Source of the DNA: Rubritepida sp.
Lineage (GTDB): Bacteria; Pseudomonadota; Alphaproteobacteria; Acetobacterales; Acetobacteraceae
Direction: 5' to 3'
Length of the DNA: 59,952 nucleotides
Assembly (NCBI GenBank): GCA_028291455.1
Contig: JAQGHY010000180.1
Coordinates: 1-59,952 of the forward strand
The translations under genes and the position numbers were made by a program. A model generated the notes under the pieces. It saw only the letters and a program-made list of their open reading frames with translations. It was not told the origin of the DNA and ran no database searches. This document shows, piece by piece, positions 8,232 to 26,853 of the stretch (the first letter of the stretch is position 1; each line of letters opens with the position of its first letter).

Positions 8232-8807
8232 CTAGCCGGCTACCAGTGTCCAGCCATTCGCGGGGAGCCAGGTCTTCAAGGTGCTCGGCATGGCGTGGGC
8301 GGCATCGAGGCGCACGAAAAACTGCTCCTCGTGCAGTGGGAAAGTCAGCTGGTAAGTCACGATAACTGCTTCCGAGCAGGTCACGTTCTTGATCACCTCG
8401 TTTCCGGCCTGCGCAAAAAGTGCAGGCGTGCCCTTATTGGCCTCGTACCGCTCCCGGTATTTCATCAATCTTGTAAAGGCGTCCGGGCCGAAGGCGGACG
8501 AGCCGAGCAGGAGGCGAACCGCTCGATAAGCACCGTAAACGGCACCGACCGAAATAGCGTCCGACACTCGCTGAAGCGTGGCCTTGCGCGCAGCTGCATC
8601 TGGGCATTTCGCCCATGGCGGCCGAAAGACCAAAATGCCCGCGCCACTGGCCATATAGGAGAGAACCCCACCTTTGTCTTTCTGGTTAGGTTCCTTGTGG
8701 AAGTTTCCGAAGAACTGGGCATGGATGATCGTCTTATTGTCGTAAGCCATGCCAATGTGCCCGGCACCACCCGGCATGTAGAGAATGTCACCAGTTTCGA
8801 TGGCCAA
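8232..8807 (-). CDS. Permuted papain-like NlpC/P60 (YiiX/YaeF-type) protein
   Basis: GGAGG-N5-TTG start; GDIL...GHIGMA...IIHA precedes a C-terminal TCSEAV, i.e. His-before-Cys order; lower GC than flanks. Confidence 0.6.
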   Translation of the reverse strand: MAIETGDILYMPGGAGHIGMAYDNKTIIHAQFFGNFHKEPNQKDKGGVLSYMASGAGILVFRPPWAKCPDAAARKATLQRVSDAISVGAVYGAYRAVRLLLGSSAFGPDAFTRLMKYRERYEANKGTPALFAQAGNEVIKNVTCSEAVIVTYQLTFPLHEEQFFVRLDAAHAMPSTLKTWLPANGWTLVAG

Positions 8808-8975
8808 GATTGCCTCCCGCAGAGCAATGCCGCGAACGCTAACCGTGCGCGGGATGATCTCTATGCAAGAGATTTGCACGCATAAGTCGAAACTGCATAG
8901 GTGATTTACTCTATTGCGTTGAGCGGGGGCGCCTATCGCGAGCGCCCGTTCCTGCACTGAGCAATCCACTGGAAA

Positions 8976-9022
8976 GTGGCGTCCCCGGCGGGATTCGAAC
9001 CCACGGCCCCCAGATTAGGAAT
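8976..9022. repeat. att direct repeat: 47 bp copy of the tRNA-Arg 3' half
   Basis: GTGGCGTCCCCGGCGGGATTCGAACCCACGGCCCCCAGATTAGGAAT identical to 26776-26822. Confidence 0.97.
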
Positions 9023-9043
9023 ATGCGAGCGCGACGCGACATT

Positions 9044-9203: not shown

Positions 9204-10559
9204 ATGCCGAAGCTGACGGACCGGTTCATTCTAGCATTTGCCCCGGCTGAGGGCGCGAAGGATCGGCTCACCTTCGACACTGAGGTGAAGGGGCTCGGCC
9301 TCCGCGCCACGTCCTCCGGAACAAAGACATTCATCGTCCAGTGGACGGACAAGGCCACGGCGCGGAAGGTCCGGGAGCCCATCGGCGTGTGGGGTGCCAT
9401 CACCCTGGAGCAGGCGCGCGAGGCAGCCCGGATCCGGCTTGGACGCGTGGCTGCCGGCTTCAATCCAAAGGCCGAACGCACAGCTCGAGCCGCCGAGGAG
9501 GCAAAGCAGCGCGAAGAGGTGGCTCAGGCGAAGATTGACGCCGCCTTCACGCTTGAAGCTTTGATCGATGATTGGGCCCGGCTCCACCTCTCCAGCCGCC
9601 GGCCGCGCTACTCGGCCGAAGCGCAGCGCGCTCTCCGGCTGACCTTTAAGGCCCAGCTGGGCCGCTCCGCAGCGACCTTGAGGCATGATGCCGTCATCGC
9701 CGCGCTGGACAACCTGGTGGGTGAGGGCAAGGCCGCCACGGCGCGCCTGACGATGGCCTATGGACGCTCCTGCTATGGCTGGGCGGTGAAGCGTCGTCGA
9801 CTGGTCCTAAACCCCTTCGCTGGGCTTCCTGCCATCGAGGGAAGCAGCACCTCTCGCGACCGTGTCCTAAGCGACGAGGAGATCGGACAAGCTTGGCGCG
9901 CGGCAGTGAAGGTGCCAGCGCCTCACGGTCCATTAGTGCGCTTCCTATTGCTGACGCTGGCCCGGCGGGATGAAGGGGCCCGGATGACCTGGGGGGAGAT
10001 CGCCGCGGATCTCTCGACCTGGACGCAGCCCGGGGAGCGGACGAAGAACGGGAAGCCCCACGTCGTGCACCTGGCTGACCCGGCGAAGGCGATCCTCCGC
10101 GAGCTGCTCGGGGTGCCGGAGCGAAAGCCGCTGCCTGCGCTGCCTCCTGCCAGCCAGCTGATCTTCGGCCTTGCCCGCAATCGGCCGATCACGGCCTTCA
10201 GTTGGATCAAGCGGGAGATGGAAGCGGCGATCGCTGCTGAGCTCGAGATGCGGCCAACTAGGGCCGATAGGACGGCTTCCGCGTTGGCGGCGTGGGTGCT
10301 GCATGATTTCCGGCGCTCGGGCGTCACCTGGCTCGCTGGGGCCGGGTTCCCGCCGCACGTCGCCGACCGACTGCTCAACCATGTTGGCGGGACGATCTCT
10401 GGCGTTGCGGCGGTCTATCAGCGCGGAGAGTTCTTGGCTGAGAGGAAGGCGGCACTGGATGCTTGGGCGGTGCACGTTGTGGCGTGTGCTGGGGGGCGAG
10501 AGGCGACGCCTAAGGTAACGAGCCTCGATAGCGAGAGAAAACGGCGACGCGCACGGTGA
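9204..10559 (+). CDS. int: Tyrosine integrase with N-terminal arm-binding domain (P4-like)
   Basis: D.EVKGLGLR..SGTKTF arm domain; catalytic R (LARRDE), K (TKN), HDFRR, LNH, AVY all present. Confidence 0.95.
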   Translation: MPKLTDRFILAFAPAEGAKDRLTFDTEVKGLGLRATSSGTKTFIVQWTDKATARKVREPIGVWGAITLEQAREAARIRLGRVAAGFNPKAERTARAAEEAKQREEVAQAKIDAAFTLEALIDDWARLHLSSRRPRYSAEAQRALRLTFKAQLGRSAATLRHDAVIAALDNLVGEGKAATARLTMAYGRSCYGWAVKRRRLVLNPFAGLPAIEGSSTSRDRVLSDEEIGQAWRAAVKVPAPHGPLVRFLLLTLARRDEGARMTWGEIAADLSTWTQPGERTKNGKPHVVHLADPAKAILRELLGVPERKPLPALPPASQLIFGLARNRPITAFSWIKREMEAAIAAELEMRPTRADRTASALAAWVLHDFRRSGVTWLAGAGFPPHVADRLLNHVGGTISGVAAVYQRGEFLAERKAALDAWAVHVVACAGGREATPKVTSLDSERKRRRAR

Positions 10560-10731: not shown

Positions 10732-10811
10732 GGCTAGCTCATCTACCAGCCTACGGGCGTCAGTGTGGAAGGAGTTTCAGCCCCGTTCCCGTAAGGGGGC
10801 GGGGCTAGCCA
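10732..10811 (+). ncRNA. Candidate structured small RNA convergent with the DUF3800 operon
   Basis: AGCUC/GAGUU and UCUAC/GUGGA stems, C(UACG)G tetraloop, 12 bp stem with GUAA tetraloop; four G-U wobbles pair only on the + strand. Confidence 0.6.
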
Positions 10812-11290
10812 TTTGTGGACGAGTATGTGCGCCAACGCTTGATAAATTTATTGACCTGATGCGCGTAGGGCAGCGGATAGGCTGTCCAGGGCAAGACGAA
10901 GTCCTCACGCTCCGCCAAAATAAATATATATCCGGCGTCTTCGCATAAAATATAAGTCCGCCTACCCCTGGACCCTTCCTCAGACCAAATCTTAAGGCAA
11001 CTATCCTCGCAGTTTTCAATAATGGCTTTTGGCCAAGCAATGCGCTCACACCGCCGCATATCCGGCGTGCGATCTTCCTCGATCGACCCTTCTGATATGA
11101 AATGCCAGAAGGTGGCCTCTCGTCCGAGAATAACTGGATTCCGCTTTAAGCCTACGCGTTTACCTCGAAATTTCAGGGGTGCGCCCCGGAAGTCCAGTTT
11201 GAATTGATCATATAACGCATCGAGGTATTTATCCCAATCACCTCTATGCTCGTCTAAAGTCAACAGCGGAGGAAGCCATAGCGGATTCAT
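10805..11290 (-). CDS. DUF3800 partner protein (resembles phage P1 RlfB-like family, from recollection)
   Basis: 161 aa AT-rich ORF with WLP..L, FWHFISEG, PD.RRCERI.W, WTAY motifs; ATGA overlap with DUF3800 gene. Confidence 0.7.
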   Translation of the reverse strand: MNPLWLPPLLTLDEHRGDWDKYLDALYDQFKLDFRGAPLKFRGKRVGLKRNPVILGREATFWHFISEGSIEEDRTPDMRRCERIAWPKAIIENCEDSCLKIWSEEGSRGRRTYILCEDAGYIFILAEREDFVLPWTAYPLPYAHQVNKFIKRWRTYSSTNG

Positions 11291-11994
11291 GGCTCTTCTG
11301 AACCACGCCAGATCAAGATGTTAAACTTCTCCTCGCGGTACAAAGTATTTTTGTCAAGGGTGTATCCGCTACGCTTAGATATCCGATCGATTAATGCAGT
11401 CTTACCGGCATTAGCATTTAATCCCCTCGCGCGATATGCCATTGCACCGATGAGAACGTCGGCCAGTTGCGCTTGCTGAGTCTCATGGGATCGAACTTGC
11501 TGTACACGCTGAATGACAGTGCGGGAAAAATCATAAGCGTTGTTGCAGAGGACATCGTGCAGTTTGTTTACTTTAGAATTGCTACGAGTGTCTTTAATAT
11601 CCAGATAAATTCTGTAAGCTGAATCTGGTTTCAAAATGACTTTAAGCATGTTAAAATACATTTTATAATACCAATCATCATGGGATTGGTTAAAATGATT
11701 ATGGTTTATTACAGATTTGTTCGGGATTACGAGACATCTAAAGTTCAAATGGTCATCGTCAAAGAAATAGTCGATTAAATCCATATAGAGTTGAATTTTT
11801 CCGAGGCTAACTTTTGTCCATTTGAACTCGAAATCCTTTGGCATTTTGTGCCGCAAACGAATCTCGTTAATGCGTTCAGCGATTTCGCGCTTCTTAGCTT
11901 CCGGGCACCATAAAGCACCGAAGACCATAGCGCGTTGTCCGTCATGCTCTAAGTGGCAAGACTCGTCGCAATAAACGTTCGTTACCCCATCCAT
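11287..11994 (-). CDS. DUF3800 domain protein
   Basis: N-terminal VYCDES and C-terminal QLAD hallmarks; AT-rich; start reassigned to MDGVTNVYCDES. Confidence 0.85.
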   Translation of the reverse strand: MDGVTNVYCDESCHLEHDGQRAMVFGALWCPEAKKREIAERINEIRLRHKMPKDFEFKWTKVSLGKIQLYMDLIDYFFDDDHLNFRCLVIPNKSVINHNHFNQSHDDWYYKMYFNMLKVILKPDSAYRIYLDIKDTRSNSKVNKLHDVLCNNAYDFSRTVIQRVQQVRSHETQQAQLADVLIGAMAYRARGLNANAGKTALIDRISKRSGYTLDKNTLYREEKFNILIWRGSEEP

Positions 11995-12151
11995 GTTGGA
12001 TAAATGATCGCCCTGCAGGGTGTTGTCGAGACCCATTTCGACGAAAGTGGCCCGCCAGTTCACTCTGACCTTCTGCTCGCTTGCATCGGCGGCTATAGAT
12101 TGCCATACGGTGCAGATCAAAAAATGGGCATTTATAAGGACTTGGAGCCTC

Positions 12152-12316
12152 GTGGCGATAAACTCAAAGGCTTGGCTGGAAGGCCGGGTTGCGGGGCTCA
12201 AAGGCGAGCCGGAGCATAAGAACCCCTATCGCGGCGCCGACTTTGAGACCTGGTACCGAGGGTGGAAGACGGGACGGGCAGGCACTGAGCCAGAAAACAG
12301 CAGCAAAGGGTCATAG
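12152..12316 (+). CDS. Small Rmf/CrpP-fold-like protein (54 aa)
   Basis: GGAG RBS then GTG; AWLEG..AG..G.....NPY......W..GW..G pattern. Confidence 0.6.
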   Translation: MAINSKAWLEGRVAGLKGEPEHKNPYRGADFETWYRGWKTGRAGTEPENSSKGS

Positions 12317-12510: not shown

Positions 12511-13044
12511 ATGGCCGACAAGGTACCCCGCACTGAACTCACAAGGGCTATAGGCGAATCATCCAAGCCCTTTGAGGAGACAGCGCGCAAAGGCGAAGAG
12601 ATTGCCGCCAACATTGTCCGAGACGGCCTAAAAACCATCGTGCTGCTTAACTCTGGCGCAGCCCTAGCCATGCCCGCCGTCACCACCTTCATCGGCTTCG
12701 ATGCAGCAGCAAAGGCGTCGCTGATCTACCCGATGGGGCTGTTTGCCGTGGGCGTGATCAGCGGCGTGTTCGCGATGGCGACTGCTTATTTCGCAATGTG
12801 CATGCACATTGAGGGCAGCCGGGCCGATGGGGAATTGCGGCAGCACCAGCATCTTCACTTCCTCACCGACACGATGGAAGCATCCGGCGTCAAAGAGTTG
12901 GAAGCGAAAAAGACCGAGAAGCGCGATGACTGGTGGCGTCGCTATAAGCGCTGGCGACTCGCCGGTATGGTGCTATTCGCGCTTGCCTTGGCCGTTTTCG
13001 TCGCCGGCGCGATCTGGGTCTTCTGGCTCGCGTTGATGAAGTGA
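12511..13044 (+). CDS. Hypothetical membrane protein (about 3 TM)
   Basis: GAGGAG RBS; three hydrophobic segments, basic stretch before last TM. Confidence 0.7.
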   Translation: MADKVPRTELTRAIGESSKPFEETARKGEEIAANIVRDGLKTIVLLNSGAALAMPAVTTFIGFDAAAKASLIYPMGLFAVGVISGVFAMATAYFAMCMHIEGSRADGELRQHQHLHFLTDTMEASGVKELEAKKTEKRDDWWRRYKRWRLAGMVLFALALAVFVAGAIWVFWLALMK

Positions 13045-15539: not shown

Positions 15540-15941
15540 ATGGCTACCCAAAAGAATAGCACCCCGCGCAAGCCCGCGAAGGGTGAAAGGAAAGCTGCGA
15601 ACCAAGACGAGCGCAAGGCCACTGTAGCCGACTACGCGAGGCTGGAGTTTGACGGTGATGGCGGAGCGACACTTGCTGCGCTGAAGGGCGTCGACGACTT
15701 GGGCGATCGTCTAAGTAGCCATGCAACGGCGGTCACGATCGCGGCCCGCTTGCTTGGCCAAGATCACCATCAGGTGCGCCAAGCCTGCATCAGCGAACCT
15801 GACGCCATGATCGAGGTCTCTGGCTCTATCGAATCCTCAATGGCTTTCTTTCGCGCCGCGCTAGAGATCCTGCAGAGCGCGAATGTCCGCATCTTGGCGG
15901 GCCTTAGCTACGCCGCTCACCTGCCGGGCGCGCCAGCATGA
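15540..15941 (+). CDS. Hypothetical phage-type protein
   Basis: AGGA RBS, ATG 15540; first gene of rightward operon. Confidence 0.65.
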   Translation: MATQKNSTPRKPAKGERKAANQDERKATVADYARLEFDGDGGATLAALKGVDDLGDRLSSHATAVTIAARLLGQDHHQVRQACISEPDAMIEVSGSIESSMAFFRAALEILQSANVRILAGLSYAAHLPGAPA

Positions 15942-16321
15942 GCGCGGCAGGCGTGATCGTCTCCTGCGCCATTCTGGACGCGGCGAGCATCGCTGAGCTG
16001 GTTTCGTGTAGCCGGCTCATGAACGCGGCAATGGATGGATTGCCGCAGTGCTTCCAGGACGAGCACATAGGCGGTTTGGTGGAGATGGACGACCGGCTCT
16101 TGGAGTACCTGGCGCAGCGCGTGCCGGGCTCGGCCGAGGATTTCGCCCACAAGGCGGCCTATCTGCTCGCACGGCAGAGCGCGAAGGATATGTCGGCCGA
16201 TGTTGCCGATCTGGTCGTGGAGGCGCTGGAGGCGGATGCCGCGGCCCGCCTGCTTAGGCAAGATCACCATCAGGTGCGCGACGGCATGCTGCTACAGGCC
16301 GCTGGCGGCACAGCGTCGTGA
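15938..16321 (+). CDS. Hypothetical protein
   Basis: ATGA overlap with previous gene; shares AARLL.QDHHQVR with it. Confidence 0.55.
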   Translation: MSAAGVIVSCAILDAASIAELVSCSRLMNAAMDGLPQCFQDEHIGGLVEMDDRLLEYLAQRVPGSAEDFAHKAAYLLARQSAKDMSADVADLVVEALEADAAARLLRQDHHQVRDGMLLQAAGGTAS

Positions 16322-17254: not shown

Positions 17255-17470
17255 ATGCAGCGCCACCTGACACCGGAAATGCTGGCCGAGCGGCATCACG
17301 TTTCTCTCCGTACCCTCGAGCGTCAGAGAGGAGATGGCTCCGGGCCTCGGTGGATTCGGATTGGCCCGAGGAAGGTCATCTATTCCATCGCCGAAGTGGA
17401 GGCATGGGAAGCTTCGCGCATGTACGCCAGCCGCGCCGCCGAGCTTTCCTCGCGGTCGAGGGCTGCATGA
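17255..17470 (+). CDS. AlpA/excisionase-like HTH protein
   Basis: LTPE.LAER..VS.RTLER.R..G.GP.W..IG.RKV.Y....V.AW pattern. Confidence 0.85.
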   Translation: MQRHLTPEMLAERHHVSLRTLERQRGDGSGPRWIRIGPRKVIYSIAEVEAWEASRMYASRAAELSSRSRAA

Positions 17471-18203: not shown

Positions 18204-18412
18204 GACAGCACCGCAAACAGGTTCAGCAGCCCGTCCGCGCGCCGCTCGCAGCGTCCGATGAGCCGCCGCGCCTCTGCATCATTCATGGCCTCTGCAATGC
18301 GGCCGGCGAGCCGCTGATTGTCCGCGCGACGGGATCCAGGCGCCGGCCACTGCTGATGGCATTTGCAAGCATCGCGACTGCTCTTGCCGCGAGCGAGGGA
18401 AGCGCGGCGTGA
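18200..18412 (+). CDS. Small hypothetical protein
   Basis: 4 bp overlaps with both neighbours. Confidence 0.45.
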   Translation: MRQHRKQVQQPVRAPLAASDEPPRLCIIHGLCNAAGEPLIVRATGSRRRPLLMAFASIATALAASEGSAA

Positions 18413-19353
18413 ACAGGCCAATCAAACCCTCGCTGGACATCGCATCCGTCAACGACCTGCTGCTCAGCTGCATGGCCGTCCTAGCCGAGCGCTTGGCCGG
18501 AGAACCGACCCAGCGCGTCCGCGACACGTTGCGTTTCGGCTCAAAGGGCAGTCTGGCTGTGCAGGTTCATGGCGCGAAGCGGGGCGTTTGGCACGACCAT
18601 GAGGCCGGCGTCGGCGGCGATCCCCTTGGCCTCATCGCGCACCTCCTGCGGATCCCAATGCGCGACGCCTATCGCTGGGCCCTTGAGTGGCTGGGTGAGA
18701 CCGGTGGGCGCGGTACAACTTATGTTGAGGATCGGGCGAAGCACCCCGAGAGTGCAGCACCATCCAGCACGCTGGATCTCGCGCGCCGCATCTGGCGCGA
18801 GGCAATAGCACCCGCTGGAACGCCGGTCGAAACCTACCTCGCGTCGCGCGGGCTGCAGCTGGAACCCGGACCTTTGCGCTTCCACCCCGCGTGCCCACGG
18901 GGATCTGAGCTGTTGCCGTGCATGGTCGCGCTAATGACTCATGCTGTCACAGGGGAGCCGTGCGGTGCCCACCGAACGTTCTTGGCCGTCGACGGCCTTG
19001 GGAAGGCGGCCGGACAGTCGAAGATGATGGCTGGCAGTGCGGGCGTCATCCGTCTCACTCGTGACGAGGATGTTGGCGGAGGCCTTGGTATCGCGGAGGG
19101 GATCGAAACGGCCCTTTCTGTCGCTCAGGGCTTCGGCTGGCGTCCGGTCTGGGCCGCCACCAGTGCGGGCGCCATTACGAAGTTCCCAGTGCTAGGCGGC
19201 ATCGAGGCTTTGACCATCTTCGCCGACCCAGACGGGCCGGGCACGCAGGCGGCGGCGACCTGCGCGGAGCGCTGGAATGCGGAGGGGCGTGAGGCTCGGA
19301 TCATCGCGCCGCCGGCAGGTGATTGGAATGACCTGCACCGGAGCGCTGGCTGA
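18409..19353 (+). CDS. Toprim-domain DNA primase
   Basis: G.W.D...G.GGD.L.L, YL.SRG, LRFHP.CP, HRTFL, IAEGIETALS, IFADPD..G..AA, GDWND. Confidence 0.9.
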   Translation: MNRPIKPSLDIASVNDLLLSCMAVLAERLAGEPTQRVRDTLRFGSKGSLAVQVHGAKRGVWHDHEAGVGGDPLGLIAHLLRIPMRDAYRWALEWLGETGGRGTTYVEDRAKHPESAAPSSTLDLARRIWREAIAPAGTPVETYLASRGLQLEPGPLRFHPACPRGSELLPCMVALMTHAVTGEPCGAHRTFLAVDGLGKAAGQSKMMAGSAGVIRLTRDEDVGGGLGIAEGIETALSVAQGFGWRPVWAATSAGAITKFPVLGGIEALTIFADPDGPGTQAAATCAERWNAEGREARIIAPPAGDWNDLHRSAG

Positions 19354-20774
19354 TGGACGGCCTTAACCCAGACGCTCGGCTCCTTGCTGCGGGCGCGACG
19401 ATCGAGATGCCAAAGCGGCGAAGCAGCAGTCGGCCGGCTCAGCAGCTAACCGGAGGCGCTGAGATCGAGTACTCGGACGACGCAATCGCCCTCGCATTCT
19501 CCGACCGCCATGCGACAGATCTGCTATTCGTGCCTGAATGGGGACACTGGCTCCGCTGGGATGGTTCACGATGGTCGCGGGACACCACTTTGGCTGTCTA
19601 CGACCTAGCGCGAGCCCTATGCCGTGAAAAGGCTGCAAAGGCGCAGTTCGCCGCCAAAGGCGGCAGCGACAAGGGCCTGAGCATTGCAAGCGCGCAGAAG
19701 GTCGCGGCCGTCGAAAAGATGGCGCGCTCCGACCGGCGCCATGTGAGGGAGGCATCGCTCTTTGATGCGGACCCGTGGGCTCTTAATACGCCTAGCGGCG
19801 TCATCGACCTTTCAACGGGCAAGATGAGGTCGCACCGAGATAGTGATCTCTGCACAAAAGTCACAACGATCTCGCCGGCAGGCGCTTGCCCCCTCTGGGA
19901 GTCTTTCGTTTCGGAAATCGCGAAAGGTGATGACGACTTGGTCGTCTACCTGCAGCGGTGGGCCGGCTACATGCTCACGGGCTCCACGCGAGAGCATGCC
20001 TTCCTCGTTCCTCATGGACCTGGAGGAAACGGCAAGGGCGTCTTCGTCAACACGCTTGCTGGAGTGATGGGGGACTACGCGACGACGGCTCCAATGGAAA
20101 CGTTCATGGCCTCCCTACATGATCGGCATCCGACGGACCTAGCCAGCCTGCGCGGCGCCCGCCTCGTCGTGGCTCAAGAAACCGAAGCTGGACGAGTTCT
20201 AGCGGAAGCGCGGATCAAGGCGCTGACGGGGGGTGACAGGATCTCCGCCCGCTTCATGCGAGGCGACTTTTTCGAGTTCACCCCGATCTTCAAGCTGGTG
20301 ATGGTCGGCAATCACCGCCCGGTTATTCGCAACCCAGATGACGCGATGCGCCGGCGCCTGCACCTGTTGCCGCTCACGTTCAAACCGACCCAGCCCGATC
20401 ATACGCTTCCCCAGCGCCTGAAAGCGGAGATGCCCGGCATCCTAGCCTGGGCCATCAAGGGTTGCCTCGCCTGGCAGCGCGACGGCCTCGGCATGCCGAA
20501 GATCGTGAAGGCGGCGACCGATGAGTATTTCACTGAGCAGGATCTCCTCGGCCAATGGCTGGAAAACCGATGCGAGTTGGCCAACGGCAGTGAGACCGCC
20601 TCCTCTGCGCTCTTCCGCGACTGGAAAAGCTGGGTAGAGGCGCGAGGGGATGAGGCGGGGACCGGGAAAGCCTTCTCCGCCACGCTGGAGCGGCACTACG
20701 CGAAGAAGAAAACCAGGGATGGAGCGATGTTTTGCGGGCTCCGTCTACGACCCCATACGGGGGGTGTTTGGTGA
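19353..20774 (+). CDS. P4/D5-family primase-helicase (D5_N + SF3 helicase)
   Basis: W..WDG.RW, LNTPSGVIDL.TG, Walker A GPGGNGKG, IKALTGGD.ISARFM, NHRP. Confidence 0.93.
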   Translation: MDGLNPDARLLAAGATIEMPKRRSSSRPAQQLTGGAEIEYSDDAIALAFSDRHATDLLFVPEWGHWLRWDGSRWSRDTTLAVYDLARALCREKAAKAQFAAKGGSDKGLSIASAQKVAAVEKMARSDRRHVREASLFDADPWALNTPSGVIDLSTGKMRSHRDSDLCTKVTTISPAGACPLWESFVSEIAKGDDDLVVYLQRWAGYMLTGSTREHAFLVPHGPGGNGKGVFVNTLAGVMGDYATTAPMETFMASLHDRHPTDLASLRGARLVVAQETEAGRVLAEARIKALTGGDRISARFMRGDFFEFTPIFKLVMVGNHRPVIRNPDDAMRRRLHLLPLTFKPTQPDHTLPQRLKAEMPGILAWAIKGCLAWQRDGLGMPKIVKAATDEYFTEQDLLGQWLENRCELANGSETASSALFRDWKSWVEARGDEAGTGKAFSATLERHYAKKKTRDGAMFCGLRLRPHTGGVW

Positions 20775-20776
20775 TG

Positions 20777-20879
20777 CCTGTGACGGGTGTGACGGGTTCT
20801 CCCTTATCAACGTTCCGCGCGTGTGCACGCACGCACGCAAGACGGGTGATAAAGCGCGACCCGTCACACCCGTCACAGG
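20777..20879. repeat. Putative replication origin of the element
   Basis: Perfect 21 bp inverted repeat CCTGTGACGGGTGTGACGGGT / ACCCGTCACACCCGTCACAGG, each arm two 9-mers, directly after the helicase stop. Confidence 0.75.
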
Positions 20880-21001
20880 GTCTTGAGTGTGCCGCTCCAG
20901 CGCGGCGCCGCAGCACCCCCGATCAGCCACGAAATCACTTCGCCACGCGCCTCGTCGCCGCGCTGGGGAAGCACGTCATCGGCGACCACAGGAGCACCAC
21001 C

Positions 21002-21583
21002 ATGAACATCTTGAGAGTTCCACATCGCTTCGCGCACTTGCTCGGCTTCGGGTCGAAGTCGAGGGCTCCATCGAAGCCCGGGCCCCGTCGCGCCGGGCTT
21101 CAATCGAAGAGGCCTACGCCGGCCAAGCGCATCGAGCCCACGGTCTCGAAGCCCAAGCCCGCGGCCAGCCACTCGCCCGCCTATACGGCCAGCAGCTTCG
21201 CCCACCTCGGTTCGATGCCGCGGGAACAATGGTCCGCGATGTGGCGGGACAAGACTGCCATGGGCGGCGACGCCTCCGGCAGCAAAGAGCGAGCGCGGAT
21301 GCTCTCCATCCTCGGATCGCCAGAGGCCGCAAAGCACCCCCCGCTTGCCGCCCATTTGGCGTTCGCGACGGAACTCAGCGCGGCGAACGCCATCAGCCTG
21401 CTGAGCACCGCTGCGCCGCTCGCTATCTCCCAGCCGCGCATCAGCCTGTCCGACCGGATGGCCGGCATCGCTCAGCCGCGCGTCGGAACCGAGGCCCCGC
21501 AGCCCGCGGCCGATACGCCGGAAGCTCAGGCGGCCAGCGTCCTCAATGCCATGAACCGCGCCCGCCCCCCGGCCCGCAACTGA
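21002..21583 (+). CDS. Capsid scaffolding-like protein (lambda Nu3 / S49 protease C-terminal type)
   Basis: AGGAG RBS; FAHLLG, low-complexity linker, ERAR..SILGSPEA......AAHLAF.T.LSA..AI.LL..A, L..RM. Confidence 0.55.
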   Translation: MNILRVPHRFAHLLGFGSKSRAPSKPGPRRAGLQSKRPTPAKRIEPTVSKPKPAASHSPAYTASSFAHLGSMPREQWSAMWRDKTAMGGDASGSKERARMLSILGSPEAAKHPPLAAHLAFATELSAANAISLLSTAAPLAISQPRISLSDRMAGIAQPRVGTEAPQPAADTPEAQAASVLNAMNRARPPARN

Positions 21584-21594
21584 AGGAGACCACC

Positions 21595-22140
21595 ATGAAA
21601 CTAGAAGACATCCTCGCGTTGCGGCCGACGACCGGCACCAGCGCCGACTTCCACGAAGCGATCAGGCGGGCCGAAGTTCTGCGGCAGGAACTCACGGCCC
21701 GTGCCGCCGAGCTCGACAAGACGCGGGCTGATGGCCTTCTCACCATCGACGACAAAACCATCCTGAAGGCCGAGCAGGAGGCCGCAGCGTCCCGCCTGGC
21801 CGTCGATCGCATCACCGCCCTGCTTCCGTCCATTCGAGAGGATGAGGCGAAGGCGGCCGGCGCGGAGACCTTAGCCGAGCTGCGGGCCGAGGTTGCCGGC
21901 GTCACTGCGACGGTGAACGCCTTCGCGGAATGGCAGGCAACCGAGTGGCCGAACATCCCCAGGCTGGTCGGCGAGGGGAGGAGGCTGGAGAGCGCGGCTA
22001 GAGATGCGCGCAGCCGCTTCCTCGCCAAAGCCGCGTCGATCTACTCGCGGCAGGAAGTCCGCGATGCCGGACCGCTCGACGTCGAGATTCCCGATCTGAC
22101 GACTCCCAGCCCCATCAGCCTCTTCGCGCACTGGAACTGA
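21595..22140 (+). CDS. Hypothetical coiled-coil protein
   Basis: AAGGAG RBS; A/E/L/R-rich helical pattern. Confidence 0.7.
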   Translation: MKLEDILALRPTTGTSADFHEAIRRAEVLRQELTARAAELDKTRADGLLTIDDKTILKAEQEAAASRLAVDRITALLPSIREDEAKAAGAETLAELRAEVAGVTATVNAFAEWQATEWPNIPRLVGEGRRLESAARDARSRFLAKAASIYSRQEVRDAGPLDVEIPDLTTPSPISLFAHWN

Positions 22141-22142
22141 CA

Positions 22143-22637
22143 ATGAGCACTTTGAATGAAACTGTCCTGGTGACCGTAGCGCCCTTTGAGAGCGTTACCG
22201 TCAGCCCCCACCCGTCCGGGATCCCCGGCTTAGCGCCGCTGGTTCTGAGGGGCGGCGATACTCTTCGCGTGTCTCCACCCGAAGCGGAGCGGCTCTATGA
22301 TCTGCGCAAGGTGGTGGGGCTTAAAACGGGAGAGGTGAAGCCGAACGACCCGCCGTCGAGCCGGCCGCTTGGCCCCAGCATCAGCTTCAACAACGGGCCG
22401 CTGATCCCGCTATCCGACGGGGCCCGTGTCGCCGGCGCAAGCATGATGGCCGCGCGCGAGTCCGCGGAGAAGATCAACGCCGGCGAGGAGGCGAGGCGGG
22501 TAGCGCGCAATGCTGAGCGACAGGGCGGCCCGCAAGACGTGCGCCGCGCCACTGTCCGCTTGTTCGGCGAGGAATTCGGCCTCGATCCACTTGGGCCGTT
22601 GCCAGGCATCACCGCCAAAGAGGGGGGCTGGGAATGA
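22143..22637 (+). CDS. Hypothetical protein
   Basis: ATG 2 nt after previous stop; 164 aa. Confidence 0.6.
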   Translation: MSTLNETVLVTVAPFESVTVSPHPSGIPGLAPLVLRGGDTLRVSPPEAERLYDLRKVVGLKTGEVKPNDPPSSRPLGPSISFNNGPLIPLSDGARVAGASMMAARESAEKINAGEEARRVARNAERQGGPQDVRRATVRLFGEEFGLDPLGPLPGITAKEGGWE

Positions 22638-22804
22638 CCAGCCCTCGCTCCGACGCGCTTCCGACCGCGGGCGCCGAACACGTGGAGCCCACACCGAAGC
22701 TCTCAGGAATGCTGAGGCTCGGTGAGAGGCTGGGCAAGAGAAACGAGAGCGGGGTGCTGCCAGGCGGCACCTCCTCCAAACCACACACGGAGAATAGCAA
22801 ATGA
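22634..22804 (+). CDS. Possible 56 aa linker ORF
   Basis: ATGA overlaps with both neighbours; no recognisable motif. Confidence 0.3.
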   Translation: MTSPRSDALPTAGAEHVEPTPKLSGMLRLGERLGKRNESGVLPGGTSSKPHTENSK

Positions 22805-23628
22805 GGCGCTTAGCGAACGGTACGCAGGTCGGCACGCTGCCCGCGGTTGTGGCCGCGGTCGGAACCCCCGGCTACGGCACAAACGGTGACCCTGGAGCCG
22901 GGCAGCTCGGCTCGATCTGGGATGCGGAGCAGTACAACCGCATTCAGGAAGAGCTGATGTCCTTCCTCACGGCCGCCGGTATCACGCCCGACGGCGCTAA
23001 CAACGGCCAGGTGCTTGCCGCAATCCGGCAAATGTTCGGGGGTGGCATGCAAGCCTTCACATCGAGCGGCAACTTCATCGTGCCGGCCGGCGTGACGAAG
23101 GTTCGAGTTCGGGTCTGGGCTGCGGGCGGCGGTGGCGGCGGTGCTGGTTCAAGTTCGGCAGCGGGTCGGGGCGGCGGCGCCGGGGGATATGCCGAGGGCT
23201 GGGTCGCTGTCACGCCTGGCGCCAGCATTCCCATCACATTGAGCGGGCCTGGTGGCGGCGGCAGCGCAGCCGGTGGCTCCGGCTCAGCGGGTAGCGCCTC
23301 GTCCTTTGGGGCGTTTGTTTCCGCCACCGGCGGCGATGGCGGCTTCGGTGCTGGCGGCGGCATCGCCACGGGAGGCGGCAACGGCGGAATCGGGCTTGGC
23401 GGAACCCTGCAGATCTCCGGCGGCGCCGGCGCACCGGGCATCGTCTTTGGCGGCACCTACAACGCCGGCCAGGGCGGCGCCGCCTGGATGGGTGGCATGA
23501 ATTACGCCGTAGGCGGCGGCTCGGCCGGCGGCGCCGGCTTCTTCCCAGGCATGGGCGGCGCCGGTGCGGCCGGCGGCGCACTGAACGGTGGCAACGGTGC
23601 CGCCGGCCTCGTGATTGTGGAGTGGTAG
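22801..23628 (+). CDS. Phage tail fibre protein (Mu-type N-terminal anchor + glycine-rich domain)
   Basis: GTPGY.TNGDP..G...S..DA...N.IQEEL...L.AAGITPD.....Q.LAAI anchor; FTSSG.F.VPAGVT.VRV..W..GGGGG ... G.VIVEW. Confidence 0.8.
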   Translation: MRRLANGTQVGTLPAVVAAVGTPGYGTNGDPGAGQLGSIWDAEQYNRIQEELMSFLTAAGITPDGANNGQVLAAIRQMFGGGMQAFTSSGNFIVPAGVTKVRVRVWAAGGGGGGAGSSSAAGRGGGAGGYAEGWVAVTPGASIPITLSGPGGGGSAAGGSGSAGSASSFGAFVSATGGDGGFGAGGGIATGGGNGGIGLGGTLQISGGAGAPGIVFGGTYNAGQGGAAWMGGMNYAVGGGSAGGAGFFPGMGGAGAAGGALNGGNGAAGLVIVEW

Positions 23629-23631
23629 GAC

Positions 23632-24081
23632 ATGAGCATGCAGCGTTTCGCGCGAATTACGACGGATGGCTTCGCGGCCGAGATCATCGAGATTGAGGAG
23701 GGAGGCGCGCCTATCAGCGAGCGGTTCAATCCCTCAATCGCGTCCACCTTCGTCGAAGTTCCGGCTGAGGTGGTGACCGGGTGGAGCCTCTCGGGCAGCA
23801 CCTGGTCGGCGCCGGAACCGCCTGCGCATGGTGACGTGGCTACCCAGCCTCTGACCGCGCGCCAGCTGCGCCTGTGGCTACTGAGCCGCGGCATCACCGG
23901 CGCGATGGTGGAGACCGCTCTGGCACAAGTGCCGGAAGGTCAACGCGAGCGGGCTCAGATCGAGTGGGAGTACGCGACCGAGTACCTGCGCAGTCACCCG
24001 CTGATCGATCAGGTGGGAGCCGCCTTCGACCTGGCTGCTCCTGACATCGACGAGGCTTGGCCTGAGGCCGCAGCGCTCTGA
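23632..24081 (+). CDS. Tail fibre assembly chaperone-like protein
   Basis: Directly follows fibre gene; F.P......VEVP..V..GW...G..W.AP and TARQLRL.L...IEWEYAT...R.HPLI motifs. Confidence 0.7.
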   Translation: MSMQRFARITTDGFAAEIIEIEEGGAPISERFNPSIASTFVEVPAEVVTGWSLSGSTWSAPEPPAHGDVATQPLTARQLRLWLLSRGITGAMVETALAQVPEGQRERAQIEWEYATEYLRSHPLIDQVGAAFDLAAPDIDEAWPEAAAL

Positions 24082-24223
24082 CACCTTCGGCATCGCAAGG
24101 AGGCGCGGAGGAGCTTCGGTGCGGGCGCTGGAGGGGCACTCAGCCTCTCCAGCACCTCGGGTGCCACTGGGGAGCTTCCGAGCCGCCTACGGGCGTCCAG
24201 CGGGACTCCACCCCCCCCGGTCT

Positions 24224-24280
24224 GGGTCCTTCCCAGGCACGATTGCAACGCGGGGGTTTCGCGAGCGCGCCACGCCGCTA
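24224..24280 (+). other. Lambda-like cos site (cosQ-cosN)
   Basis: GGGTCCT, 23 nt, GGGTTTCGCGAG, CGCG, then CGCTA in the same register as lambda cos. Confidence 0.7.
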
Positions 24281-24313
24281 GCCAAACTCCTCCAAAGTAG
24301 GGTGACAGGTGAC

Positions 24314-24874
24314 ATGACGACTATGACGATCAGCGCTTTCGCGCGCCTGCAGGACGTCTCGCGCAAGACGGCCTACCAGTGGAAATCCATGGATTACCTT
24401 GCGTTCCATGGAAGGGAGGTGGACGTGGAGCGGTCTAACGAGCGCCTCGCTGCAGCCGGCCTGTCGCGTCTGAAACCTGCAACCCTGCGGGTCTCAGTGT
24501 CACGTCAGTTGGGCCAGCGCGTCGCTCCCGACCTTACCTCCCGCGAAGCACTGATCCGACACGCGCACCAGTTTCCTTGCGTGTCCAGAATGTCGGTCTT
24601 CGCCGCCAGCAAATGGGACGTTGCACTGGAGATGCGGGCGCACCTGCCGCTCGCGACGGTCCAGGCGATAGTGGCGCGGGTCGTCGCCACAGATCGACAA
24701 TCTGCCTACGAAATTGCGCTGAACGACGGCGAGGGCCCGCCTCTCGGCTTCGCGAGCTGGGCCGACCACCCCTGGTTCGCCCGTCCTGCCATGACCGAGG
24801 AGGATTGGCAGGAACTCGAGGAAGAGCACCGGGCCTCGTGCTCGATCCAGGCCAGCGCCCCGGCTCCGCCATGA
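24314..24874 (+). CDS. TerS/Rpp-like winged-HTH packaging protein
   Basis: MT..T.SAFARL..VSRKT.Y.WK....L...G..VDVE.SN N-terminus; immediately downstream of cos. Confidence 0.65.
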   Translation: MTTMTISAFARLQDVSRKTAYQWKSMDYLAFHGREVDVERSNERLAAAGLSRLKPATLRVSVSRQLGQRVAPDLTSREALIRHAHQFPCVSRMSVFAASKWDVALEMRAHLPLATVQAIVARVVATDRQSAYEIALNDGEGPPLGFASWADHPWFARPAMTEEDWQELEEEHRASCSIQASAPAPP

Positions 24875-25108
24875 TCGTCTATGCCTTCAGCCGCACCATC
24901 ACCGGCGCGACCCAACTCGACGCAACGTGTGGACGGTCGCGGCGGTAGGTCGTGGTGGACCGAATCCTTCACGGCGGTGGAGGATCGCGGCGTCTCACCG
25001 ACCAGTTGGGAGCCGTCTGCCATCCACCTCCTCACCGAGGTCGAGGGCAAGCACTTGGTCGCGCTATCCGACTGCGAGGACCTGTCGGCGCAGCTCCGAC
25101 GGGACCTC

Positions 25109-25891
25109 CTATGGCACTCTGCCGCTCAACGCCTCGGCAGGATAGCACCTCGCGGAATACCATCCATTCTCGGCCATGTACTGCCGGAAAGCCGTCCCGA
25201 TCGGGATGGTGCAGGACGTCGTCAACGGGCGGCTAAATCCGACCATATTAACCCGGAACGTAAGTCTCATCTGGGTGGCAGCTTCGATCTGGCTCAGGAA
25301 TTCAGCCGGAGCAACGAAGTTGACGTCGGAATTACAGGCTTGGCCTTCAGACTGGCTAGGTTGAGGTGGGCAGGCCTGTTCAAACGGCGCGAAGGAGACA
25401 GTCTGACTAACCGCGCCGCCTCCTGACACGGGGAAAGGGTGAGCAGACTCCCGCGGCTCGACCTGCAGGCGCATCTCCACGCGGCGCACCGTGACGAAGC
25501 TGAGCCACTCCTGAACATTGTTGAAGCGCCCCGCAGTGACGTTCAGGCTGACGCTACGGACGATCGCGTCCCGCCCCGCATCCGCCGTGTTTACGAAGGA
25601 AAGTTGCGAAACGAACCGCACTACAGTCCGATTATTGGCGTATTGATCGAAGGTCACATAGACCAAATCCGGTGGGTACACGCTGGGCGAGGCTCCATTG
25701 GCCCAGGACGAGATCTGATACGCGACGGAGATCATCGACAGGACGAAGGCGGTCGCCGCAAGCAAGTCCGACTTTGTGACGATCACGAATCCTAAGAACG
25801 AAATCCAACGTTCGGGCGGCTTGTCGAAGCCGCTGCGCTTTCCGTTCGAGACACCTTCCGGCGCTCCCTCCGTATTGCTTTCGAGGGTCAC
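25109..25891 (-). CDS. Hypothetical membrane-anchored protein
   Basis: 260 aa, N-terminal TM, beta-rich body, four Cys in C-terminal half. Confidence 0.6.
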   Translation of the reverse strand: MTLESNTEGAPEGVSNGKRSGFDKPPERWISFLGFVIVTKSDLLAATAFVLSMISVAYQISSWANGASPSVYPPDLVYVTFDQYANNRTVVRFVSQLSFVNTADAGRDAIVRSVSLNVTAGRFNNVQEWLSFVTVRRVEMRLQVEPRESAHPFPVSGGGAVSQTVSFAPFEQACPPQPSQSEGQACNSDVNFVAPAEFLSQIEAATQMRLTFRVNMVGFSRPLTTSCTIPIGTAFRQYMAENGWYSARCYPAEALSGRVP

Positions 25892-26212
25892 TTATCGGCG
25901 TCGCGATCTGGCTAGGCAGCCGGGATAGTCAGGCATACTTTTGAGAGAGGGAACGGCCTCGGCCATCGCGAGCAGATTGGCGCACTGGGTGGCGCTGGGA
26001 TCGTCCCCAGATATGACCCCCCTGGGCGCCGCATCCCTGCTCATGGGTGCCACCTGCGATCCCGAAGAGTAGGTATTCCCACCGGGCGGCGCATTCAAAA
26101 ACAAGCCGGTCGGATTTCCGCTTGGATTTGCCTGAGGGAGCGCAGTTTGGGGAAGGATGGCCCACGCAACCATGACAATAAATGTAAACACTCTCGTAGA
26201 ATTTTCCGACAT
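25892..26212 (-). CDS. Hypothetical small secreted protein
   Basis: Hydrophobic signal-like N-terminus, two Cys; stop abuts next start; start uncertain. Confidence 0.45.
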   Translation of the reverse strand: MSENSTRVFTFIVMVAWAILPQTALPQANPSGNPTGLFLNAPPGGNTYSSGSQVAPMSRDAAPRGVISGDDPSATQCANLLAMAEAVPSLKSMPDYPGCLARSRRR

Positions 26213-26703
26213 GACCATGCCCCTCGAAAATTCGCTTCCGCGTACGGTATCTAGCGGCTGCATCTCAAGTATTTTCCGAGCACGTGAAGAATTGAAGCCG
26301 AAATCGGGGCGGCAGGCTTGAGATTTGGTAGAGGGGGACTGCTGGTCGCCATCAGTCCACGTGCGACATCCAGTCATCGGAGGAGCGCGATTGCCGGACC
26401 CGAGAATGCTGCTGCGTTTGAGGCTCTGACGCTGCGAGCCACCACACTGATCAAAAGAGCTATGGCGGCGAGTGCATACAAGACGGCCGCATCGGGCATC
26501 AGGACTTCTCAGCGGCCGGAGAGCGTTGCCGCCTTCTGGTGCCGGGTTTCACAATGTCGAGCGGATGGCTGTACGTCTCGGGAGATCGATGAACGGGCCG
26601 CCGACCTGATGGCGGACTACGAAGCCCACCGGCCGCGCTCGCGGCTCCGGTTCAGCGGCAGGCTCAGGTCCATTTGCTGACAAGATGGCGAATCTGCCTC
26701 AGA

Positions 26704-26736: not shown

Positions 26737-26776
26737 GAAATATGCGGGTAAAATATCTGGTAACCCTTGGAAAATG

Positions 26777-26853
26777 TGGCGTCCCCGGCGGGATTCGAAC
26801 CCACGGCCCCCAGATTAGGAATCTGGTGCTCTATCCGGCTGAGCTACGGAGAC
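26777..26853 (-). tRNA. tRNA-Arg (anticodon CCT)
   Basis: 77 nt cloverleaf GTCTCCG...CCAGA-TTCCTAA-TCTGG...GTTCGAATC...CGGGGAC-G-CCA. Confidence 0.97.

What the first reader, a model, noticed from the sequence alone, without database searches (positions are those of the whole stretch)
22801..24081. Capsid-less satellite carrying its own tail fibre and chaperone
Seen: a tail-fibre gene (Mu-type baseplate anchor plus glycine-rich body) and a coupled assembly chaperone sit between the replication module and cos. No sheath, tube, tape-measure, baseplate, capsid or TerL gene is recognisable inside the att repeats. Known: P4, PICIs and cf-PICIs typically take tails from the helper. Inference: this element may fit its own receptor-binding fibre onto helper tails, setting its own host range or disabling helper virions.
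Basis: partly seen in the sequence, partly recalled or inferred. Interest (0 to 1): 0.88.

Follow-up and report, generated by a model that had tools for sequence, protein, structure and literature searches.

The report
Phage satellite with swappable tail fibre
A 17.8-kb island with no capsid or tail genes, likely a parasite of contractile-tailed phages, carries an intact tail fibre and chaperone of the phage type, with a tip that differs in a sister island, so it likely fits its own cell-recognition protein onto borrowed tails.

Summary
Observation confirmed and extended. The 17.8-kb element at tRNA-Arg (integrase, AlpA, primase, helicase) has no sheath, tube, tape measure, baseplate, capsid, portal or TerL hit in 100 six-frame ORFs. 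P0001 is a whole short fibre like cyanophage Pam3 gp24 (Z 23.9) whose N-terminus is homologous to the wedge-docking end of Mu gp49. P0002 matches the Pam3 chaperone gp25. Of 68 distinct anchors found, 63 lie in Mu-type tail operons; the other 5 lie in satellite-like elements. A syntenic sister element keeps the anchor and the chaperone C-domain (dN/dS 0.21 and 0.13, like its core genes) but has a different tip with a matching chaperone N-domain. A third relative lacks the cassette, so it is accessory. None is resident in the genome, and expression and incorporation are untested. Best reading: the satellite adds its own fibre to helper baseplates (0.58). My searches found no paper describing this, and SatelliteFinder forbids tail genes in PICIs. 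Unchecked notes from this scan report similar islands elsewhere.

The parts
8973..9025 (.). left att repeat (copy of the tRNA-Arg 3' end; exact core 8976-9021)
9204..10559 (+). tyrosine integrase with arm-binding domain
   Evidence: PF00589, PF13356, phrog_1; 62% to the sister element
10805..12201 (-). two-gene candidate anti-phage system PDC-M04A/B (low-GC cargo)
   Evidence: PADLOC E 4e-96 and 2e-59; GC 0.44 in 11001-12000
12511..13044 (+). predicted membrane protein shared with the sister element, which holds it at the other end
   Evidence: 58% identity
13094..13969 (-). DUF5655-containing cargo protein
17255..17470 (+). AlpA/excisionase-type regulator
   Evidence: phrog_66 E 6e-6; 85% to the sister element
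18409..19353 (+). Toprim primase
   Evidence: PF13362, phrog_510
19353..20774 (+). D5-type helicase
   Evidence: PF08706, PF19263
21002..21583 (+). scaffold-like protein; its C-half matches the gene between the S49 protease and the head-decoration gene of lambda-head prophages (scaffold role inferred from position)
   Evidence: phrog_6382 E 1e-17; 43% over 97 aa to L013:3105-3827; alignment
21595..22140 (+). conserved family gene, no function assigned
   Evidence: 32% to the G009 copy, 50% to the G484 copy
22143..22637 (+). family gene, no function assigned
   Evidence: 40% to the G484 copy; Atlas hits all below 0.9
22801..23628 (+). short tail fibre P0001: Mu-gp49-type anchor (about 1-80) plus TNF-like/glycine-rich tip, Pam3 gp24 type
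23632..24081 (+). fibre chaperone P0002: beta N-domain like Pam3 gp25, helical C-domain
24211..24314 (+). cos-like packaging motif, also found just upstream of terS-terL in helper-type prophages
   Evidence: 23-nt exact match to the G034 prophage; six-region alignment and one hit in the 4.84-Mb own genome with a pattern drawn from these sites
24323..24874 (+). TerS/Rpp-like protein with an N-terminal HTH (may start at 24314)
   Evidence: 16 of 38 identical to the N-terminus of a prophage TerS, E 1e-6 pairwise; PHROG TerS only E 0.055; 67% to the sister element
25109..26377 (-). two unassigned cargo ORFs
   Evidence: no Pfam, PHROG or PADLOC hit
26773..26853 (-). tRNA-Arg(CCT) with the right att repeat (26773-26825)

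Best explanation
The island is a capsid-less, PICI-like element that carries a whole short tail fibre and its chaperone, and it likely works as a satellite of lambda-head, Mu-tail phages that docks its own fibre onto helper-built baseplates. Shown: att-bounded anatomy; no head, tail-shaft or TerL genes; a fibre anchor of the family that normally follows the Mu gp48 wedge gene; a matched chaperone; conservation with tip exchange in a sister element. Inferred steps: (1) an incoming helper phage triggers excision and replication; (2) the TerS/Rpp-like protein and the cos-like site redirect helper terminase, as E. coli PICI Rpp does; (3) the scaffold-like protein may steer head assembly; (4) the chaperone folds the fibre trimer, whose N-terminal helices bind the helper gp48 docking loop in competition with the helper's own fibre; (5) particles from that burst then carry the satellite's tip, alone or mixed, and would adsorb to cells the satellite's tip recognises. 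The cassette is an accessory module in a fixed slot, restocked from the phage gene pool.
For: Anchor context: 63 of 68 distinct anchors have a gp48 gene upstream (54 adjacent, 9 within 8 kb); the 5 without are this element, G009:C26, two G250 copies and G477:C251. In Mu the N-terminus of gp49 binds the gp48 docking loop (PMC11915804, passages), and the anchor profile hits that region. The sister element G009:C26 (18.7 kb, 45-nt att at tRNA-Arg(TCT)) is syntenic and has the same anchor but a Gp53-like_C tip. dN/dS between the two elements: anchor 0.21, chaperone C-domain 0.13, versus 0.14-0.24 for integrase, AlpA, primase, helicase and the TerS-like gene. Tip and chaperone N-domain stay matched: among 64 anchor loci, window-type N-domains follow glycine-rich tips in 14 of 14 cases and G009-type N-domains follow gp53-like tips in 5 of 5 (each count includes its own query, and kin are not independent). 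The cos-like motif, scaffold-like gene and TerS-like HTH all point to the same prophage class as the anchor. A separate element in G250 (14.4 kb, 44-nt att at tRNA-Glu) carries a distantly related fibre plus a Mu gp44 hub. Precedent for satellite parts in helper tails: PLEs (PMC12987554, passages).
Against: No Baseplate_J, sheath or GpA terminase in the own genome (89.8% complete) and no gp48 in G000, G009, G250 or G484 (positive control G034), so no helper pairing is shown. A related element in G484:C23 has the flanking genes, the cos-like motif and the HTH gene but no fibre or chaperone. The two anchors are not sisters in the best tree, and G009's groups with prophage anchors (100/91), although a shared origin is not rejected (AU p 0.08). 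The low dN/dS may therefore partly reflect selection while in phages. dS is high (0.9-2.0). In the run that may be the source, depth inside the element (7.1-8.8) is not above the flanks (9.3-12.8) and no att-att joint is listed. Only two complete elements of this family with the cassette were seen.
Confidence: 0.58

Rival explanations
1. The cassette is a passenger: a fibre-chaperone block picked up from a co-infecting phage by recombination, or left over from a reduced prophage, with no use to the element.
For: It is missing from the G484 relative. The anchors of the two elements are not sisters in the best tree. The chaperone C-domain is as close to two prophage tail-end copies without Mu-type genes (55 and 57 of 78 identical) as to the sister element's copy (53 of 78). 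The second G250 copy has a shortened fibre and a broken hub gene.
Against: Two elements about 65% alike in core proteins and at different tRNAs hold the pair intact, in the same slot and orientation, each with a matched tip and chaperone N-domain. The neighbours on both sides are satellite genes, not gp48 or lysis genes, so this is no deletion remnant of a tail operon. GC3 of both genes (0.77) equals that of the integrase.
Confidence: 0.17
2. The fibre is an interference tool: it occupies helper docking loops or forms mixed trimers, so helper virions get a useless tip. The benefit would be population defence rather than a new host range for the satellite.
For: The anchor is the conserved part and the tip is exchangeable. 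Tail-assembly interference by satellites is known (Tai, PMC11364771; PLE Rta, PMC12987554; passages). The element also carries a candidate defence system, and no helper is resident.
Against: A blocker would not need a full 195-residue tip with its own matched chaperone. Satellite particles need the same tails, so poisoning them would also stop satellite spread. This rival and the best explanation are not exclusive.
Confidence: 0.15
3. The fibre acts off the baseplate: as a free trimer that masks the surface receptor after lysis, or as a tether to helper virions, as the MiniFlayer fibre binds its helper's neck.
For: MiniFlayer's own short fibre adsorbs to its helper (PMC10690885, passages).
Against: MiniFlayer has its own capsid to carry the fibre; this element has none. 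A free adhesin would not need the wedge-docking N-terminus, which is the best-conserved part.
Confidence: 0.07

Closest known systems
Gram-negative PICIs (EcCICFT073 type; core definition in PMC10085698, cos-rpp layout in PMC9026076; passages read)
   Same: att-bounded at a tRNA; int, accessory cargo, AlpA, primase/helicase, then packaging genes; a cos-like site directly before a TerS-like HTH gene; no capsid, portal or TerL.
   Different: Carries a tail fibre and chaperone, and tail genes are 'forbidden' components in the SatelliteFinder PICI model. It has a helper-type scaffold-like gene. The likely helper has a contractile Mu-type tail.
PLEs of Vibrio cholerae, chimeric tails (PMC12987554, passages)
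   Same: A satellite supplies its own tail parts to helper-built contractile tails.
   Different: PLEs supply tape measure, tail assembly chaperone and hub, and were proposed to take tail fibres from ICP1. This element supplies only the fibre and its chaperone, and incorporation is untested here.
Cyanophage Pam3 fibre gp24 and chaperone gp25 (PDB 7YPX; PMC9608196, parts 1 and 3 of 5 read; PMC9942802, passages)
   Same: Helical anchor, TNF-like and glycine-rich tip; chaperone with a variable beta N-domain and a helical C-domain; adjacent genes.
   Different: Pam3 fibres attach by Cys28 disulfides, while P0001 has no cysteine. Pam3 is an autonomous phage.
Phage Mu S/U (gp49/gp50) and its invertible alternative (PMC11915804, passages)
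   Same: Homologous baseplate-docking N-terminus; a constant anchor with an exchangeable tip-plus-chaperone block that sets host range.
   Different: No invertase or second cassette here; the exchange is seen between elements, and the tip fold differs.
cf-PICIs and MiniFlayer (PMC10085698 and PMC10690885, passages)
   Same: Satellites that encode some virion proteins; MiniFlayer encodes a tail fibre.
   Different: Both encode their own capsid. cf-PICIs take whole tails; MiniFlayer's fibre binds the helper's neck.

Membership tests
PICI (PMC10085698 model) | integrase | tested here: met
   PF00589 and phrog_1; att repeats
PICI (PMC10085698 model) | AlpA/MerR/Stl regulator | tested here: met
   phrog_66 E 6e-6; Pfam AlpA only E 0.032, below its cut-off
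PICI (PMC10085698 model) | primase-replicase module | tested here: met
   Toprim primase and D5 helicase
PICI (PMC10085698 model) | capsid morphogenesis gene | tested here: inconclusive
   a scaffold-like gene is present, but the model's own profiles were not run
PICI (PMC10085698 model) | small terminase or Rpp beside cos | tested here: inconclusive
   HTH 16 of 38 identical to a prophage TerS, behind a cos-like motif; no TerS family hit past E 0.055 and no PDB hit
PICI (PMC10085698 model) | no tail or holin gene inside the element | tested here: not met
   tail fibre inside the att repeats
PICI (PMC10085698 model) | helper-dependent excision, replication and packaging | not testable with these tools
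   only assembled contigs were available
cf-PICI | own major capsid, portal, TerL and head-tail connectors | tested here: not met
   0 of 100 six-frame ORFs hit such PHROGs
PLE-type chimeric tail module | satellite tape measure, tail assembly chaperone and hub | tested here: not met
   none in this element; hub or tape-measure genes occur in other satellite-like elements of the family
P4-like satellite | Sid, Psu, Delta | not tested
   no dedicated profiles were run; the general PHROG scan named none
Pam3 gp24-type fibre | helical anchor, TNF-like domain and glycine-rich domain | tested here: met
   72 of 195 tip residues are glycine
Pam3 gp24-type fibre | cysteine anchoring to the wedge | tested here: not met
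   0 cysteines
Pam3 gp25/Tfa-type chaperone | fibre-binding beta N-domain | tested here: met
   Z 9.9, rmsd 1.3, 60 aligned, residues 1-64; the G009 counterpart hits phrog_188 Tfa
Pam3 gp25/Tfa-type chaperone | trimerising helical C-domain | tested here: inconclusive
   helical and conserved, but not superposed on gp25 (rmsd 12.1; one search covers 1-64 only)
Mu gp49-type fibre anchor | N-terminal domain that docks on gp48 | tested here: inconclusive
   homology and gene context fit; binding itself was not modelled or measured

The most novel reading that the evidence does not exclude
These acetic-acid-bacteria-family islands are an undescribed satellite class with a plug-in tail slot. They parasitise incoming lambda-head, Mu-tail phages and swap in their own fibre (here and in G009), fibre plus hub (G250, G477) or tape measure (G137, G395). 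Satellites would thus set their own receptor specificity, and genome surveys would miss them because tail genes are used to exclude satellites.
Probability: 0.45. Interest if true: 0.87.

Novelty: new variant of a known kind. Interest (0 to 1): 0.74.

Why it matters
Satellite host range is usually taken to be the helper's. A satellite that brings its own receptor-binding fibre could carry its cargo, here a candidate defence system, into cells the helper cannot infect, and could retarget the helper's own virions. It would extend PLE-type tail piracy to the specificity determinant itself. The standard detection tool rejects PICI-like elements that contain tail genes (PMC10085698), so this class would be absent from current counts by design. 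The two natural alleles, with the same anchor and different tip-chaperone blocks, make the idea directly testable by deletion and swap.

Tried and rejected
Complex prediction of the anchor trimer with a prophage gp48 was not available, so docking rests on homology and gene context. No RNA holder was listed for 21000-25000, and the one RNA run laid gave only short pieces, the longest shown being at the att/tRNA sequence; this says nothing on expression. A resident helper was sought and not found. The own genome's C193 tail end shares only the chaperone C-domain (71% over 76 aa) and no Mu-type tail gene hit it. Further family members: the TerS-like profile gave 8 of 401 family genomes, 0 of 29 in one other genus and one weak, unrelated viral contig. 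The scaffold profile gave none in viral contigs. There was no plasmid hit. Other primase/helicase matches examined in the same genus and in G034's genus were other islands or prophages without the cassette (part of the output was cut). The idea that the chaperone C-domain is satellite-specific was dropped: it occurs in Mu-type phage contigs L150, L152 and L229 and in prophage tail ends. The chaperone tree (45 of 89 rows, 79 columns) did not resolve the two satellite copies. No sigma-70 promoter was found in 20700-25200. Neither the scaffold-like nor the TerS-like profile hit a relevant PDB sequence. The Atlas gave no usable lead for 22143-22637 and did not answer for 21595-22140. Earlier-findings look-ups by sequence, by narrow words and by genome were empty. 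Literature searches listed no capsid-less satellite with its own fibre. PMC9618062 (passages), PMC10111431 (term search, 0 hits) and PMC11773190 (passages) added nothing. The library omits most subscription papers, and no supplements were read. The GGGTCCT motif as lambda cosQ is recalled: PMC4669245 (passages) confirms a conserved 7-bp cosQ but does not print it.

Full report
The element. Direct repeats of 53 nt at 8973-9025 and 26773-26825 (exact core 46 nt) bound 17.8 kb ending in tRNA-Arg(CCT). GC is mostly 0.59-0.70 inside, with 0.44 over the defence cargo, against 0.66-0.74 in most of the flanks. Gene order: integrase; cargo, including the PADLOC pair PDC-M04A/B; AlpA; Toprim primase; D5 helicase; a co-oriented block from 21002 to 24874; two unassigned ORFs. 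Named homologues come from Roseomonas, Roseococcus, Falsiroseomonas and acetic acid bacteria, so the host is inferred to belong to that family. All 100 six-frame ORFs of 85 aa or more were scanned against PHROGs. None hit sheath, tube, tape measure, baseplate, major capsid, portal or TerL.

The two proteins. P0001 was modelled from 31 homologues (mean pLDDT 84; residues 1-18 under 50). Its best structural match is Pam3 fibre gp24 (Foldseek E 3e-10; Z 23.9, rmsd 3.9, 231 aligned over 36-275). By sequence profile it hits gp24 (E 1.6e-31) and residues 1-88 of Mu fibre S (E 3e-6). In Mu that N-terminus binds the gp48 docking loop (PMC11915804, passages). [quoted passage not shown] P0002 (pLDDT 94) has Pam3 chaperone gp25 as its only PDB hit at E<=0.001, with Z 9.9 and rmsd 1.3 over the N-domain. 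Its family has a variable N-half and a conserved C-half, as described for gp25.

Where the anchor normally lives. Loci were collected from all-species genomes (9), metagenomes (12), viral contigs (7, 16 and 80) and genome searches (53 of 401 family genomes; only part of those matches were fetched). Across everything fetched there are 68 distinct anchors: 54 directly follow a gp48 gene, 9 have one within 8 kb upstream, and 5 have none. The fullest example, G034:C49, has a lambda-type portal, S49 protease, capsid E and GpA terminase with a Mu-type sheath, Baseplate_J and gp48, and a fibre 49% identical to P0001.

The sister element. G009:C26 holds an 18.7-kb element with 45-nt repeats at tRNA-Arg(TCT), syntenic from integrase to the TerS-like gene at 32-85% identity. 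Its fibre has the same anchor (68% over 80 codons) but a Gp53-like_C tip. Its chaperone shares the C-domain (53 of 77) but has a Tfa-type N-domain. dN/dS is 0.21 for the anchor and 0.13 for the chaperone C-domain, against 0.14-0.24 for five core genes; the scaffold-like gene gives 0.36 and the 21595 gene 0.79 (Nei-Gojobori, dS 0.9-2.0, near saturation). Among 64 anchor loci, 29 have glycine-rich tips and 11 have gp53-like tips. Window-type chaperone N-domains occur only after the former (14 of 14) and G009-type only after the latter (5 of 5) (self hits included, kin not independent). Each element thus keeps a matched tip-chaperone pair. A probable third case is a metagenomic chaperone (55% over its length) and a TerS-like protein (62%), both on a 5,810-nt contig; only the length is shared, so the same contig is not shown.

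Origin. In a tree of 77 anchors (82 columns; one duplicate row dropped; 13 rows without context), both satellite anchors nest among prophage anchors of the same bacterial group. They are not sisters, but holding them together is not rejected (AU p 0.08). The G250 anchors lie far away. This fits at least two captures from phages, and it weakens dN/dS as proof of selection inside satellites.

Packaging parts point to the same helper class. The gene at 21002 matches the gene between protease and head-decoration genes in G034 (43% over 97 aa); calling it a scaffold rests on that position. A motif at 24211-24314 shares 23 exact bases with the DNA just upstream of terS-terL in G034. It aligns with the same region of the G248 prophage and of three other elements, and a pattern drawn from these sites hits once in the own 4.84-Mb genome. 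The gene behind it has an HTH like a prophage TerS N-terminus and a different body. This is the cos-rpp layout of E. coli PICIs (PMC9026076, passages), but membership of the Rpp family is not shown.

Against the reading. G484:C23 has the flanking genes, the motif, the HTH gene and a true TerS, with an unrelated 108-aa ORF where the cassette would be; no integrase was seen in the 30 kb fetched. The own genome has no Baseplate_J, sheath or GpA hit (89.8% complete), and gp48 is missing from all four satellite-bearing genomes tested, so the helper would have to be an incoming phage. Contig depth in the possible source run is not raised over the element and no att-att joint is listed.

Wider family. 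G250:C7 holds a 14.4-kb element with a 44-nt att at tRNA-Glu, a different replicon, a protease-like gene, a glycine-rich fibre, an 83-aa chaperone N-domain, a full Mu gp44 hub and TerS. A 5.3-kb contig of G477 has hub plus fibre without gp47/gp48. G137 and G395 elements carry tape-measure genes. These suggest a general slot for helper tail parts.

Mechanism. Most likely (0.58) a helper-triggered satellite redirects terminase to its cos and adds its own fibre to helper baseplates, so its particles would bind cells chosen by its tip. Rivals: passenger (0.17), tail poisoning (0.15), off-baseplate adhesin (0.07). Anatomy, homology and conservation are shown; every assembly step is inferred.

Known versus new. 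It works like a PICI, but it fails the published PICI model, which forbids tail genes (PMC10085698, passages). PLEs build chimeric tails with their own tape measure and hub but were proposed to take fibres from the helper (PMC12987554, passages). MiniFlayer has a fibre but also a capsid. Six searches listed no capsid-less satellite with its own fibre, within a library that lacks most subscription papers. Unchecked notes from this scan describe similar islands in other genomes (8 of 67 shown). I did not test them; they make uniqueness unlikely and are not support. Verdict: a real, conserved feature; a new variant of a known kind; interest 0.74.

Noticed in passing
L083:8238-10545 (G009:C30): At the tRNA-Arg(CCT) site orthologous to the window's, G009 has a 2.2-kb att-bounded remnant with a fragment of the TerS-like gene, so this family has visited and decayed at the same site.
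   Followed up: partly
L078 and L122 (G250:C7, about 235500-250000); L077 (G250:C8): 14.4-kb satellite-like element with DnaB replicon, protease-like gene, fibre, short chaperone, Mu gp44 hub and TerS. A second copy, 95-98% identical, has a shortened fibre and a broken hub gene.
   Followed up: partly
L080 and L123 (G137:C1); L079 (G395:C328): Satellite-like elements with the cos-like motif, a TerS-like gene and a full tape-measure gene, but no other tail gene seen.
   Followed up: partly
L246 (G477:C251): 5.3-kb contig with a hub gene and fibre anchor but no gp47/gp48; neighbours resemble those in the G137 element by eye.
   Followed up: partly
L144:175-3980 (G015:C7): cos-like motif, TerS-like ORF and a gp44 hub fragment next to tRNA-Arg(CCG); possibly another decayed member.
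   Followed up: no
window 10805-12201: Low-GC PDC-M04A/B candidate defence pair (DUF3800 protein plus partner).
   Followed up: partly
window 20777-20879: Imperfect inverted repeat right after the helicase, with a similar palindrome at the same place in G009; a candidate replication origin.
   Followed up: no
window 15740-15779 and 16240-16279: 40-nt direct repeat (93%) at the ends of two adjacent small ORFs; possibly a local duplication.
   Followed up: no
window 8232-8969: Unassigned low-GC ORF just outside the left att repeat, with no family hit past cut-off; possibly left by an earlier insertion.
   Followed up: no
G000:C193:94-9515: Prophage tail end with endolysin in the own genome; its chaperone C-domain is 71% identical to P0002, although no Mu-type tail gene hit it.
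   Followed up: partly
L140:6570-16952 (G005:C2): Small island at tRNA-Phe with primase and what look by eye like HNH, terminase, capsid, protease and portal genes; a possible cf-PICI-like element.
   Followed up: no
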